Source of the DNA: Octopus vulgaris
Taxonomy: Eukaryota
DNA length: 64,000 nt
Assembly (NCBI GenBank): GCA_951406725.2
Contig: OX597824.1
Coordinates: 6,386,001 to 6,450,000 of the forward strand
Reading direction: 5' to 3'
Below, piece by piece: positions 9,773 through 64,000 of the stretch; position 1 is the stretch's first letter, and every line of letters starts with the position of its first letter. The notes under the pieces are model-generated. The model was not told where the DNA came from and ran no database searches. It was given only the letters and a program-made list of their open reading frames with translations. A program made the position numbers and the translations under genes.

Positions 9773-10462
9773 GCACTTAAATTAAGTATAGAAGACCTGA
9801 GACAAACAAAACCAAAAAAGAAAGAAAAATTAAAAACCCTTCCCTACATCTCTACACACAACCCACTTAACAATGAGGCCTTCAACACCATACTACAAAG
9901 CACAGCCCTACTAAAGGGAGATCCAAAGATGAACCGGATCCTCGAAACACACACCATCATTAAAAGTAAACGGCAACCAAAATCCTTTAAAAAGACTTTA
10001 ACCCAAGCTAAACTGCACTCAACAACAACCACAAAACCTGCAGTTAGAAAATGTGGAAAGCCCAACTGCGGAATCTGTGTCATCTTGGTAGAATGTTCAG
10101 AATTCACATTAGAATAAGGCCATCAGTTTACCATCAGAACAAACTTCACCTGTGCATCAGAAAACTTAATTTACGTCTTAACATGCGCAGGGTGCAATAG
10201 GCAGTATATAGGCCATACAAAAAACAGCTTACGAAAAAGGATGGCGGTGCATAAATCCCAAATTAGAAACCCTGATTACCGGAAAATACCGGTCAGCGGA
10301 CACATAGATAGATGTGCTTCAAATAAAAATCCCAAATTCACAACTTGCCCACTTTACAAATTCAGTGACAGCGTAACCTTCACTCAACGCCAAAATAAAG
10401 AACTTTATTTCATTAGAAACTTCGGACACCCTCATTTGAACACCCTGGGCCAGGAATATTAA
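9773..10462 (+). pseudogene. Penelope-like (Neptune-type) linker and GIY-YIG endonuclease remnant
   Basis: One frame with an internal stop at 10115-10117: LPYISTHNP..RQPKSFKKTL..KCGKPNCGIC..FTCASENLIYVLTCAGCNRQYIGHT..LRKRMAVHKSQI..VSGH..KELYFIRNF. Confidence 0.85.
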
Positions 10463-23153: not shown

Positions 23154-24660
23154 ACTCTTATCTTTTGCTGCTTGTGGTGACCTTTAAGGCTGGGACGTGT
23201 TACTCAGACTCAATGTCTGATGAAGCCAGGTCAGCTGCCATACAGTCCTCTGTGCCATTTCCAAAACAGACCGTTCTTCAGCAGCTGGTGTCGAAACTGC
23301 GCCTGAATAATGTTTCCTCTTACGACCAGAACTCCACCATCCACATATTTCCAAGGTGCAGCCATCATGTTTTGTTACCTGGTTGCAAACACACTTGTAT
23401 GTTCATGCCATTGAAACACATAAGCTATATAATTTAGTTCATTTTATTATCCCTTTTTTAAATAAACAAGTTTATTTTGATTATATCTGTTCAAAAGTTA
23501 TCCCCTGTAGGAATAATCCTTCGTTAGTTAATCAACGCTGATTTGAGCATTTTACTACACAGATGAGTTCGAACAGAACAAAATTATGTCTGTCCTTGGA
23601 TCCTTGTATACCATGGAACAAAATTCAGCTTTATCCTTCCTCGCCTGCAAGTCTGTTGATTAATTTTGTAAAGTTTGTTCATATTTTCTTGAAATCATCC
23701 CACGATTTCTTCGAGAGTCGCTAAAAATTAGCGCTAGGATTTTGCTACATTTCTCCAAGACGTAAATTCCAATTAATTTGAAAATGTCTAATGATGTCAT
23801 TGAGTACATCACCCCTTGGCAGGCTTATTTAAATTTATGCCATTAAGCCAATAGGGGTATTTCTCTCAGCTCAGGGTGTGTGTGTGTGTCTGTGTGTGTG
23901 TTTGTGTGTGTATGTATTCGTGTGTGTATGTGTGTGAGCGTGGTTGTGTGTGTGAAAGAGAGAGAGAGTGAGAGAGCATGTGTGTCCATGTGTGTGTGCT
24001 TGTGTGTGGGTGAGTGTGTGGGTGATTGTGTTTGTGTGTGTTTTTGCGTGTGTGTTTGTGTGTGTATGTGTGTGTGTCCATGTGTGTGTGTCCATGTGTG
24101 TGTGTGTTTGTGTGTGGGTTAGTGTGTGGGTGATCGTGTTTGTGTGTGTTTTGTGTGTGTGTGTTTGTGTGTGTATGTGTGTGTGTCTTAGCGTGGTTGT
24201 GTGTGTGAAAGAGAGAGAGCATGTGTGTGGGTTGGTGTGCTTGTGTGTGTTTTTGTGTGTGTGTGTGTGTGACTGAAAGAGTGAAACAGGAATTAGACAT
24301 TCATGAACCTCGCAAGGCACATCTTAATTAGTTTAATCAACAAGGCATTTAATCAGTGGCTTAGCTCTACAATTAATTAGAAATTGCTCGCGGCTATGAT
24401 CAATGCCTGGTTGAAATAAATGGACGAGAGGAATGTTTATATATATATTATATATATATATATATATACATATAAAACTTTGTTTTCCTCTTTATATGAG
24501 TAAATATTAAAGGAACTCTGTGTGTGTATGTGAGTTCTCATGAACTTTGCAAATACTTTCTGCATAGTTTCTTCGAATATGAGAAGTAGTATTTCAATAA
24601 ATTTCATTCTGCTAATATTAAACTGGTGTAACACCTTAAATTAATGCTTCAGCAGCTTCT

Positions 24661-25437
24661 TTGGAAAAGGAAATAGACAATCAGCTGGCATTCCTGGACG
24701 TATTAATAACACGCACCAAGTATGGATTCAGGACATCCGAATACCACAAGCCGACCTTCACTGGACGATACCTCAACTTCAATTCCCACCATCCATACAG
24801 TGTAAAGAGAGGGATTGCTCAGTGCCTAAAACATCGTGTAAAGAATATAAGTAACGATCGTGATACACACCACGAAGAAATAATCAAGCTCAATAACGAT
24901 CTGTTAAGCAACAACTACCCCAAAAGTATACTAACTACTTGTATTATGAAGAAAAGAGAGGGTGTGGCCAATAAACTGTCCATAGTCTGTCTACCCTATG
25001 TGAAAGGCCACTCCGAAAAGATACAAAAGATATGCGGCCCAAATGACATCGGGACAGGATTCAAGAGTAATACAACACTTTACAAATATCTCCTTCGAGT
25101 AAAACCACCAATAGAAGAGAATATGACCAAAGATTGCGTGTACTCCATCCCATGCAGCTGTGGTAGGTTATACAAAGGCAAAACATGCCGCCCCCTCAAC
25201 ATAAGGGTAGACGAACATCGCAAAGCTGTGACACAGGGAGATATTGATAAATCGGGTATAGCTGATCATGTATGGAAAAATGGAGACCACCTCCTCCTGT
25301 GGGATGAAGTTAAAATATTGGACGGAGAACACCACTGGAAAATACGAAAACTAAAAGAAGCAGCACATATGCTAGGACACAACAACCTCCTAAAGAGACC
25401 GAGAGCAGATATGAGTAGAATATGGGAACCGGTATGA
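24661..25437 (+). pseudogene. Penelope-like (Poseidon-type) RT C-terminus plus GIY-YIG, 5'-truncated
   Basis: LAFLDVLI..YHKPTFTGRYLNFNSHHP..LPYVKG..CVYSIPCSCGRLYKGKT..RVDEH..SGIADH..RKLKEAAH. Confidence 0.9.
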
Positions 25438-30189: not shown

Positions 30190-30640
30190 CATTATTACGG
30201 CTACCCCCTCGTTATCAAGTATGGCCATCGCACGAAGCTTAACTGTTACTGGTGCTGTGATCGAATGTGACTTTTTAGCCCAGCTAAAGATCTACAATGT
30301 CTTGTACATAATTGGCAACTAAAACCTTTACCGGTAATAGCCGGCTGTAGTTGTAACTGGGTTTCATGTACCTTTGCATGTCGTTTAAGTCCTCCTGCCG
30401 AATTACACTCTCTTCCACATGCCTGACAGATATGATTAGTATGGTGTGTTACACCACCACCAGTGGCCAGGTTGTCACTCATCTGTCTCGCTTTATGACT
30501 ACGAAGATGACTCTTGAGTCCAGCTTTACTTAGGCTGGGTCTTGCACAGACACTGCATGTCAGCATCATAGGAAGACCCTTCTCAGCTGGAAGTGTAACA
30601 GCGATGCCCTTCCTGACATCCCTCCTTACTTTCTCATGTA
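30190..30640 (-). pseudogene. RTE-like LINE 3' end with three C2H2-type zinc fingers
   Basis: CSVCARPSLSKAGLKSHLRSH, CQACGRECNSAGGLKRHAKVH and CQLCTRHCRSLAGLKSHIRSQH, then a short 3' UTR and a (TATG)n tail. Confidence 0.65.
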
Positions 30641-31629
30641 TGAACGTACATACATACATGCATACATACATACATACATACATACATACATACGTGCATA
30701 CATTCATACATGAGTGTATGCGTGTATAAGTGTGTGTGTGTGTATGTGTGTATGTGTATGCGTGTGTTTATGTGCTATCCTGCACCATCAGTCACAATTA
30801 GTGACTATTGAATTCTTTCTTTTTAGTTTTCTATTGCTTGTATACGCATACGTCAGCGCACGTGTCTGTGTGTATATGTGTCTATATACAGTCTTCACAG
30901 TAAAAAGGAAATGCGCTCCTCTAAACGTGAAGGGAATATGATGCATCTAACGATGGTATCTAGTTATCAAAATCAAATCATAAACACAGACTGAGCAACA
31001 AATATATATTCGATCTTAATTCAGCTTTAATTCTCCGCTGAAATCGTCTTTTTAGTTCAGAAACAAAGACTTCAAATTGATCGTTATGATGACACATTGT
31101 TTAAAGTAATTTGAATATTGTTTTACAGTAATTAAAAAGAATAACAGCGTAGATATGGAACACAAGCAGCCAAAATCTCCCCCACTAAATCCTTACATAA
31201 ATTTTATTTAATCTGTTTTGTATATTGTTCCGTAAGCAATACGTGAGCTTTAGATAGGCGCAAACGGGACAAGGTTTTAATCTCCATCTGAAACAGTTCA
31301 ATCCCGTAACAAATCCATAATGCTGTAATAAATAAAATCATATTCAGCCCAGCACAATAACTATGGTGGTTAGCTTAGAGTTAACTACATCTTCTTAATG
31401 CAGAAGGCCCCCTTGGGAAACTTTCTAAACTGATAAGACTTTTTTTCATTATTTTCTTTGTTTCAATATTAATAATTTATTATTTTCTAAATCGCTATGC
31501 CCATCACAATTGCCCTTTTCTCACTCTTTAACAAATACAGGATAAGACTTCTAGCCTAGTTAATAAGCAGCAGATCAAGGCTCCTACTTGATTCACTGGT
31601 TTGGCCACTCTAAGTTAGCTTCTTCGCTC

Positions 31630-57339: not shown

Positions 57340-57600
57340 AAAAGTAAAAAAATATATACAAACTGGGACAAGGGTGAAACACCTAGAAGACGACACAAGA
57401 AACACAGGACGGGACATTCGAAGCCCTCAATCATCAGTCAAGAACCGGATCATCATAGCAATTTCGGCTGATTAATCTTGAGATTGCTCCGTATATATAT
57501 ATACGACGGGCTTCTTTCAGTTTCCGTTTACGAAATCCACTCACAAGGCTTTGGTCGGCCCGAGGCTATAGTAAAAGAGACTTGCCCAACGTGCCACGCA
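57050..57600 (-). mobile_element. SINE family A interrupted in its (TA)n by a ~150-bp insert (57338-57491)
   Basis: Tail at 57050-57290 and head part at 57500-57600 flank an unrelated segment. Confidence 0.8.
57422..57488 (-). ncRNA. Candidate non-circularly permuted hammerhead ribozyme, copy 1
   Basis: AGCAAU-C-UCAAGA uuaauc AGCC-GAA-AUUGCU (13 nt) UCUUGA-CUGAUGA uugag GGCU. All three stems and the core are present in rearranged order. Confidence 0.7.
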
Positions 57601-63464: not shown

Positions 63465-63547
<83 letters not shown>

Positions 63548-63660
63548 AACAACAAAAACGCAAGAGAGGGCATTAAAACGTTTGGACAGATAGACGACAC
63601 AAAGGCGGACAAGAGAAACAACAATTAGAAGGACAGACAAAAAAAGACGGGTCATTGGAG

Positions 63661-63732
63661 GTCTTTTTTCTCAGTCAAGTACCAGAAGTCACAACCATTT
63701 CGGACAGTTACACTTGAGATGGTTCGATCTGG
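63661..63732 (-). ncRNA. Candidate non-circularly permuted hammerhead, copy 2 (diverged, core imperfect)
   Basis: AACCAU-C-UCAAGU guaacu GUCC-GAA-AUGGUU (12 nt) ACUUGA-CUGAGAA aaa AGAC. Confidence 0.6.
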
Positions 63733-64000
63733 TTGTCTCCAAAAATATCTAAGGTAAGAGCATTAGACCCCTTTGTAAGAAAGCTAACAAATGTGTATGG
63801 CAACAAAGGCAAAGAAAAACAAACAAGCAAAACATCGGAGAACATGGTACACAATTACGAATACAACAAGATATATATATATTGTTAACTCTTGGGAGAT
63901 AAATAGTGCAGTTGATGCCAAGCCATTTTGAGCTCATAAAATAGTTTTTAAATTCCGCTAAAAGAAAACTACTGCGCAATGATTTAGAAATGCTACAGAT

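What the first reader, a model, noticed from the sequence alone, without database searches (positions are those of the whole stretch)
63661..63732. Second diverged copy gives five compensatory changes for the permuted fold
Seen, relative to the 57.4-kb copy: stem III AGCAAU/AUUGCU becomes AACCAU/AUGGUU (2 compensatory pairs). Stem I UCAAGA/UCUUGA becomes UCAAGU/ACUUGA (1 pair). Stem II AGCC/GGCU becomes GUCC/AGAC (2 pairs plus one C-A mismatch). AUC, CCGAAA, CUGA and the 6-nt linker length are kept while linker sequences differ. An upstream CCAGA can pair with UCUGG in the B-C linker, suggesting an extra helix. The core reads CUGAGAA, so this copy may be dead. Inference: structure, not sequence, was conserved across two subfamilies of a (TA)n-abutting Penelope-like tail (about 63546-63870).
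Basis: seen in the sequence. Interest (0 to 1): 0.8.

Follow-up and report, generated by a model that had tools for sequence, protein, structure and literature searches.

The report
Rewired hammerhead ribozyme in Naiad tails
A damaged copy of a very common repeat in this animal genome holds all the parts of a hammerhead self-cutting RNA, wired in an order I could not find in print (the chain is opened inside the catalytic core); the same wiring can be read in published Naiad jumping genes, which were reported to lack canonical hammerheads and to which this repeat likely belongs, and cutting is predicted but untested.

Summary
Sequencing runs of this high-copy, (TA)n-flanked family show an intact core in most copies; this copy has G8>A and G10.1>A and is probably dead. 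They place the stem II partner UPSTREAM of the cleavage block (63738-63734 with 63706-63702; A-U and G-C variants at similar frequency on both sides), not after CUGAnGA. The order is IIa-P-S-G-P'-CUGAnGA: the type-SGC non-circular hammerhead (Eckert 2023, found only in metatranscriptomes) re-opened between A9 and G10.1, a link that paper assumed unbreakable. Reading the Naiad consensus file of Craig 2021 by eye, I found this split layout in 11 of 54 entries (8 independent families, ctenophore to cephalopod), type CSG in 6 and an SGC-like form in 1, although Naiads were reported to lack canonical hammerheads. Three of the five claimed compensatory changes stand. Not shown: cleavage, and that this repeat's parent is a Naiad (no ORF link). 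New variant of a known ribozyme class; interest 0.8.

The parts
63551..63881 (-). High-copy repeat, likely the 5'-truncated 3' tail of a Penelope-like (Naiad-type) element
   Evidence: 2184, 2834 and 1921 contigs laid in three runs; depth falls to near zero past 63881; loose ends before 63551 are (TA)n
63469..63545 (.). (TA)n tract abutting the element's 3' end (likely insertion target)
63734..63738 (-). Stem II 5' strand (positions 10.1-10.5), upstream of the cleavage block; this copy has A instead of G at 10.1 (63738)
   Evidence: 4 of 5 pairs in this copy; G at 63738 in 91, 82, 87, 98%; G at 63736 in 56, 56, 54, 63%
63728..63732 (-).
   Evidence: 5 of 5 pairs with 63686-63682
63718..63724 (-). 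Stem III strand plus U16.1-C17 (AUC triplet); predicted cut between 63718 and 63717
   Evidence: cut site by analogy with hammerheads (inference)
63712..63717 (-). Stem I strand after the cut
   Evidence: 6 Watson-Crick pairs plus 2 possible G-U
63702..63706 (-). Stem II 3' strand (11.1-11.5)
   Evidence: C at 63704 in 45, 57, 66, 68%, matching G at 63736
63693..63701 (-). G12-A13-A14-A15.1 and stem III strand
   Evidence: variants at 63720, 63721 and 63696 fit stem III pairing; 63693 differs in 73-80% of DNA depth, so the sixth pair may not be kept
63682..63686 (-). Extra helix P, 3' strand
63668..63680 (-). Stem I strand and CUGAnGA core, here CUGAGAA (G8>A at 63669); no stem II strand follows A9
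   Evidence: no pair within 0-2 nt after A9; for the intact family core
57345..57491 (-). Second, diverged copy with an intact core, cut off by a (TA)n run 3 nt upstream of stem III, so its upstream stem II and most or all of its P strand are missing
   Evidence: left end approximate

Best explanation
The stretch is a damaged copy of a high-copy (TA)n-flanked repeat, likely the 3' tail of a Naiad-type Penelope-like retroelement, whose family carries the full hammerhead core and four helices in the order IIa-P-S-G-P'-CUGAnGA, a layout predicted to self-cleave although the chain is open between A9 and G10.1. Shown: the order of strands, pairing of I, III and P, the intact family core, and matching variant frequencies for upstream stem II. 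Inferred: the strands assemble the usual hammerhead active site (C17 cut; G12 and G8 catalytic), with helix P and the short I-to-II linker holding stems I and II together as in type SGC; A9 keeps its own phosphate and stacks on G10.1 without being linked to it. After a cut, the ORF-side product would stay bound to the tail through helices II, P and III (about 16 bp), which would favour re-ligation. The likely role is the one proposed for other PLE hammerheads, processing of tandem or read-through transcripts. This copy (G8>A, G10.1>A) is predicted to be inactive.
For: Window. Family: (unphased): G8 and G10.1 restored in most depth, N7 variable, 63736/63704 A-U versus G-C at similar frequency in 4 of 4 runs, no row among the 40 shown (of 122) at other core, stem I or P positions. 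Independent families, read by eye in PMC8557442 supplement: split layout in 11 of 54 Naiad entries, 8 independent families, each with its own stem sequences; upstream stem II of 6 bp in 6 families, 4 bp in 1, 4 of 5 in 1; no partner longer than 2 bp within 2 nt after A9 in any of the 8; all have an NUH triplet. Six more entries are type CSG and one SGC-like with the same P helix, i.e. other openings of the same cycle. SGC-1 oligos of PMC10085705 give the order S-G-P'-C-IIa-P. The A9/G10.1 junction tolerates an inserted A or U in a viroid hammerhead (PMC3705267 passage). Cephalopod Naiads prefer (TA)n and two are flagged HHR_half_core.
Against: No cleavage data. No ORF is linked to this repeat, and its sequence is not visibly homologous to the published cephalopod Naiad 3' ends I saw; a 9-nt stem I/core string had 0 hits in that supplement. 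One search is unphased and hides 82 of 122 variant rows, so the covariation is by frequency only, and the stem III partner frequencies differ (9/7/12/44% against 2/4/7/30%). The RNA run shows no pile-up of read ends (table 6). Copies cover both sides of the predicted cut, so the reverse-transcribed template was uncut or re-joined. Inserted C or G after A9 is detrimental in the viroid case, so the junction is not indifferent. Naiad_Obim/Ovul also allow a wobble-rich 5-pair downstream stem II 4 nt after A9, and the 57.4-kb copy a 4-bp one. Naiad_Bfor has only 2 bp of stem I, and Naiad_Aacu has mismatches in II and I. 36 of 54 Naiad entries gave no motif I could fold (7 core-like places unresolved). 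The paper folds are by eye, not computed.
Confidence: 0.7

Rival explanations
1. The fold is real and hammerhead-derived but no longer cuts: the break after A9 disables catalysis and the structure is kept as a protein-binding or template-positioning element in the 3' UTR.
For: Copies span the predicted cut site and no read-end pile-up is seen; some insertions after A9 are detrimental; PLE minimal hammerheads cleave poorly in vitro (PMC4209133 passage).
Against: The core is kept with the pattern expected from catalysis (N7 free, NUH with H = A, C or U, A15.1-U16.1, mostly G10.1-C11.1) in 8 families with unrelated stem sequences; the sister CSG and SGC layouts cleave in PMC10085705.
Confidence: 0.15
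2. One reading: a plain type-SGC hammerhead whose stem II partner follows CUGAnGA after a 3-5 nt insertion.
For: 4-bp downstream partner in the 57.4-kb copy; wobble-rich alternative in Naiad_Obim/Ovul; one Naiad entry is SGC-like.
Against: The register differs between the copies (5 against 3 nt); chance 0.11; family consensuses behind 63656 lack the partner while the upstream strand varies at matching frequency; no downstream partner in 7 of 8 split families.
Confidence: 0.07
3. The ribozyme reading is right but the carrier is not a Naiad: another PLE clade or a non-autonomous element acquired the same motif.
For: No ORF link; other (TA)n-targeting PLEs exist (Hydra-1_Obim); the PLE fragments in the window (9800-10450, 24640-25437) have C-terminal endonucleases, though neither is linked to a copy.
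Against: The split layout was seen only in Naiad entries, while the Hydra/Penelope rows of the same supplement are canonical; position in a 3' tail and (TA)n flanks fit Naiads.
Confidence: 0.2
4. Chance pairing in a decayed repeat.
For: Non-pseudoknot folding energy is unremarkable (z -0.59); Rfam finds nothing.
Against: 0 of 500 shuffles with two motifs; 0 of 128 viral control loci with the split layout; family variants and published Naiads keep the pairings. Neither tool models this pseudoknotted order.
Confidence: 0.02

Closest known systems
Type-SGC and type-CSG non-circularly permuted hammerhead ribozymes (Eckert et al. 2023, PMC10085705)
   Same: Same cyclic order of strands, same short linker from stem I to the stem II 3' strand, same fourth helix joining the strand just 5' of stem I with the strand just 3' of the stem II 5' strand.
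   Different: Chain opened between A9 and G10.1, inside block C, which that paper assumed cannot be interrupted and its descriptors required to be contiguous. Found in an animal genome at high copy number; SGC was reported only from metatranscriptomes, CSG from two metagenome sequences, none in genomes of known organisms.
Naiad Penelope-like elements (Craig et al. 2021, PMC8557442)
   Same: (TA)n insertion bias, cephalopod remnants, motif in the 3' region; the same split anatomy is readable in their consensus sequences.
   Different: Reported to lack canonical hammerheads, with some flagged HHR_core or HHR_half_core and no structure given. This repeat's sequence was not matched to any of their families.
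Minimal type I hammerheads of canonical PLEs (Cervera and de la Pena 2014, PMC4209133)
   Same: Hammerhead core in the terminal region of a Penelope-like element.
   Different: Canonical C-G-S order, little or no stem III, works as a dimer; here stem III is 5-6 bp, the order is pseudoknotted and the motif can fold as a monomer.

Membership tests
Hammerhead ribozyme | Core C3 U4 G5 A6 N7 G8 A9, G12 A13 A14, A15.1-U16.1, H17 | tested here: met
   Met in the family and in the 57.4-kb copy; not met in this copy (G8>A)
Hammerhead ribozyme | Stems I, II and III flanking the core | tested here: met
   I and III; II: 4 of 5 pairs here, 5 of 5 with the family's G10.1, matching variant frequencies
Hammerhead ribozyme | Site-specific self-cleavage after H17 | not testable with these tools
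   No assay; the RNA run showed no end pile-up, which is uninformative for decayed copies in host transcripts
Type-SGC hammerhead (Eckert 2023) | Block order S, G, C | tested here: met
Type-SGC hammerhead (Eckert 2023) | Stem II strand follows CUGAnGA within 0-2 nt (block C unbroken) | tested here: not met
   No pair at 0-2 nt in this copy, 1 pair in the other; the partner lies upstream
Type-SGC hammerhead (Eckert 2023) | Fourth helix joining stems I and II | tested here: met
   P helix 63732-63728/63686-63682, next to the same two strands as in SGC-1
Canonical hammerhead types I-III (Rfam) | Circular order C-G-S and a match to an Rfam model | tested here: not met
Naiad PLE | ORF with N-terminal GIY-YIG, CxC and DKA motifs, RT with IFD | tested here: inconclusive
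   No ORF attached to either copy; no Naiad RT motif in six frames of the window; no genome held
Naiad PLE | Insertion into (TA)n | tested here: met
   Both copies flanked by TA runs; family loose ends; not specific to Naiads
Naiad PLE | Pseudo-LTR or partial tandem structure | not testable with these tools
   Only solitary truncated tails in the window; no long internal repeat

The most novel reading that the evidence does not exclude
Naiad retroelements across ctenophores, cnidarians, acanthocephalans, nematodes, arthropods and cephalopods carry active hammerheads of the reversed, pseudoknotted cycle in three openings (SGC, CSG and a seventh layout opened between A9 and G10.1). Non-circularly permuted ribozymes are then common in animal genomes, and the hammerhead's CUGAnGA-stem II link is dispensable.
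Probability: 0.65. Interest if true: 0.88.

Novelty: new variant of a known kind. Interest (0 to 1): 0.8.

Why it matters
It would add a hammerhead layout outside the six permutations enumerated in PMC10085705 and show that the backbone link between A9 and G10.1 is not needed, which bears on how the core assembles and on ribozyme engineering. It would move non-circularly permuted RNAs from uncultured metatranscriptome contigs into named animal genomes at high copy number. It would also revise the statement that Naiads proliferate without hammerheads (PMC8557442), which was used to argue that hammerheads may merely parasitise Penelope-like elements. Each point can be tested with an 80-100 nt transcript.

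Tried and rejected
No genome is held for the window, so no genome-wide phased alignment. Rfam at gathering thresholds: 0 matches. A contiguous-block descriptor found the 57.4-kb copy and two weak hits but missed this copy. The family-specific pattern gave 1 locus in viral contigs and 4 in metagenome contigs; none of the 5 passes stems I and III, rejected as chance. A generic GAAA-then-CUGAUGA pattern returned 128 viral loci (of about 750 estimated): 0 split, 1 weak SGC-like. My automatic P/II finder picked G-U-rich ties in the window copies, so its joint shuffle figure (3 of 500) is permissive; the pairs reported come from the explicit listing. Run search: no RNA holder listed. In the RNA run 84% of laid reads run on into unlike sequence and both directions are covered; one direction falls faster upstream of the predicted cut (about 45 to 3 against 47 to 21), but strandedness is unknown and few loci may contribute, so I do not use it. 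Pfam on 9 window ORFs: only a zinc finger. A 20-nt upstream loose-end motif has no match in the window. Plain folding is uninformative for a pseudoknotted order. Earlier notes: nothing by sequence, by the first word search or for this genome.

Full report
Observation. Listed pair by pair: stem III 63724-63719 with 63698-63693 (6 of 6), stem I 63717-63712 with 63680-63675 (6 of 6, plus two possible G-U), an extra helix P 63732-63728 with 63686-63682 (5 of 5), GAAA at 63701-63698, the triplet AUC at 63720-63718 and CUGAGAA at 63674-63668. The 57.4-kb copy has the same stems I and III with three compensatory differences and an intact CUGAUGA; the copies are 67% identical over 128 columns (alignment). 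The order cleavage block (S), GAAA block (G), CUGAnGA block (C) with both stems at 5 bp or more occurs twice in the window, against a mean of 0.012 and never twice in 500 block-wise dinucleotide shuffles. Rfam finds nothing. The window looks like a cephalopod genome by its microsatellites and SINE-like repeats; that label is recalled and was not tested.

The downstream partner gives three pairs and a mismatch at the core-proximal pair, 3 nt after A9; in the other copy the partner lies 5 nt after A9, and a 4-bp partner in that range arises in 11% of shuffles. No genome is held, so I laid three DNA-type contig sets and one RNA run on 63546-64000 at 80% likeness. The repeat is abundant (2184, 2834 and 1921 contigs laid), spans about 63551-63881 and has (TA)n loose ends at its 3' side. 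Of 122 variant rows, 40 were shown. G8 is restored at 63669 in 75, 64 and 73% of DNA depth (40% in RNA, where insertions also occur), and loose-end consensuses behind 63656 read CUGAUGA or CUGAGGA followed by a purine-rich tract that does not complement the G-block strand. Upstream, 63738 is G in 91, 82, 87 and 98%, 63736 is G in 56, 56, 54 and 63%, and its partner 63704 is C in 45, 57, 66 and 68% (fractions computed). This gives a 5-bp stem II, 63738-63734 with 63706-63702, closed by G10.1-C11.1 and switching between A-U and G-C. Stem III variants at 63720, 63721 and 63696 also fit pairing, at unequal frequencies; 63693 differs in 73-80% of DNA depth with no partner row shown, so stem III may be 5 bp. 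No shown row falls in P, stem I or the other core positions. These data are unphased. This copy carries G8>A and G10.1>A and is predicted dead. The 57.4-kb copy is cut off by a TA run 3 nt upstream of stem III, so its stem II cannot be judged.

What the layout is. PMC10085705 (main text read, parts 1-6 of 8; supplement parts 1 and 8 of 42; figures not seen) divides hammerheads into blocks S, G and C, assumes the blocks cannot be interrupted, and validates the non-circular orders SGC and CSG. It found none of them in genomes of known organisms, and its descriptors need CUGAUGA(U)G directly before stem II. Its SGC-1 oligos give the order S, G, P', stem I plus core, stem II strand, P. The motif here is IIa, P, S, G, P', stem I plus core: the same cycle, with the IIa-P segment at the 5' end, so that the chain ends fall between A9 and G10.1.

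Independent families. PMC8557442 (passages; supplement searched, and parts 1, 12 and 25 of 59 read) says that Naiads prefer (TA)n, lack canonical hammerheads and in some cases have a core or half core that fits no descriptor. I read by eye the text around exact CUGAnGA matches in its file of 54 Naiad consensus sequences; the first 8 places of the N7=A variant were not seen, and motifs split by line ends are missed. The split layout is present in 11 entries: Naiad_Bfor, Amil, Aacu, Anas, 2_Movir, Plae, Obim, Ovul, Esco and two whose names I did not see (parts 9 and 19). These are 8 independent families with different stem sequences. The upstream stem II has 6 bp in six (for example GGCUCC/GGAGCC in Amil, GGCCCC/GGGGCC in Plae, GACACC/GGUGUC in Obim), 4 bp in one and 4 of 5 in one; P has 5-15 bp; every triplet is NUH; none has more than 2 pairs within 2 nt after A9. 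Weak points: stem I is 2 bp in Bfor, Aacu has mismatches, and Obim/Ovul allow a wobble-rich downstream alternative. Six entries (Naiad-1, -2, -3_Nbra and three unnamed, parts 13, 15, 16) are type CSG with the same P helix and an unbroken A9-G10.1 link, and one (part 17) is SGC-like with a short stem II. Seven core-like places stayed unresolved, and 36 of 54 entries gave no motif I could fold. Where I saw whole 3' regions (2_Movir, Plae, Esco) the motif is on the sense strand after the ORF. None of this was computed, because those sequences are not held by the tools. As a control, 0 of 128 viral loci with GAAA before CUGAUGA had the split layout.

Mechanism. Shown: strand order, pairings, intact family core. 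Inferred: the strands build the standard active site and cut after C17 (63718/63717). The A9 phosphate and G10.1, which bind a metal ion in hammerhead structures (recalled), both survive a break 3' of A9, and this junction takes an extra A or U in a viroid hammerhead, though C or G are detrimental (PMC3705267 passage). After a cut, stem I and all catalytic residues lie on the 3' product, while the ORF-side product stays bound by II, P and III; this would slow release and favour re-ligation. Genomic copies cover both sides of the site, so the template for reverse transcription was uncut or re-joined. The proposed role of PLE hammerheads, processing tandem precursors, is itself unproven. I put the odds at about 0.9 for the fold, 0.8 for cleavage given the fold, and 0.75 for a Naiad parent.

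Carrier. Neither copy is joined to an ORF. Two PLE fragments elsewhere in the window (9800-10450 and 24640-25437) have C-terminal GIY-YIG-like motifs by eye and are not linked (Pfam gave no hit for the second). The repeat is not visibly homologous to the published cephalopod Naiad ends I saw, so I file it as Naiad-like by anatomy and target, not as a tested member.

Novelty. Eight literature searches and passages of 10.64898/2026.07.22.740005, PMC13725137, PMC13159263, PMC10162972, PMC4209133 and PMC3088659 showed no report of a hammerhead opened between A9 and G10.1 or of permuted hammerheads in Naiads. The library lacks most subscription papers, and bioRxiv supplements are closed, so that preprint's tables could bear on the claim. 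Earlier notes of this scan mention phage hammerheads opened at the same link in the canonical cycle, and twister-like motifs in clam Naiads; they are unchecked leads, not support. Verdict: new variant of a known ribozyme class, interest 0.8.

Noticed in passing
window 9800-10450 (+): Penelope-like fragment: thumb-like stretch, CxxxxCxxC linker and C-terminal GIY-YIG, one in-frame stop; Neptune/Nematis-like by layout, no ribozyme found beside it.
   Followed up: partly
window 24640-25437 (+): Penelope-like fragment with RT end and C-terminal GIY-YIG by eye; no Pfam hit; not linked to either ribozyme copy.
   Followed up: partly
window 63719 (run X24 loose end): 24 RNA reads from probably one locus stop matching at 63719 and continue into (GA)n; the junction is ambiguous by 2 nt and so could coincide with the predicted cut at 63718/63717. 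One locus only.
   Followed up: no
window 63866 (loose ends): Some family copies continue upstream of this copy's 5' end into a shared sequence; a handle for walking toward the parent ORF. Not present elsewhere in the window.
   Followed up: partly
PMC8557442 supplement, parts 16-19 and 26: Seven Naiad places, mostly arthropod by file order, have CUGAnGA after a C-run or short stem that I could not fit to any layout; bivalve-range parts 20-23 gave no foldable core.
   Followed up: no
L105: One of 128 viral control loci fits a weak SGC-like layout (stems I 5, III 5, II 4, G-U rich); probably chance.
   Followed up: no
window 30249-30767 (-): Open frame with C2H2 zinc-finger matches below or near Pfam cut-offs, perhaps a retroelement end.
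   Followed up: no
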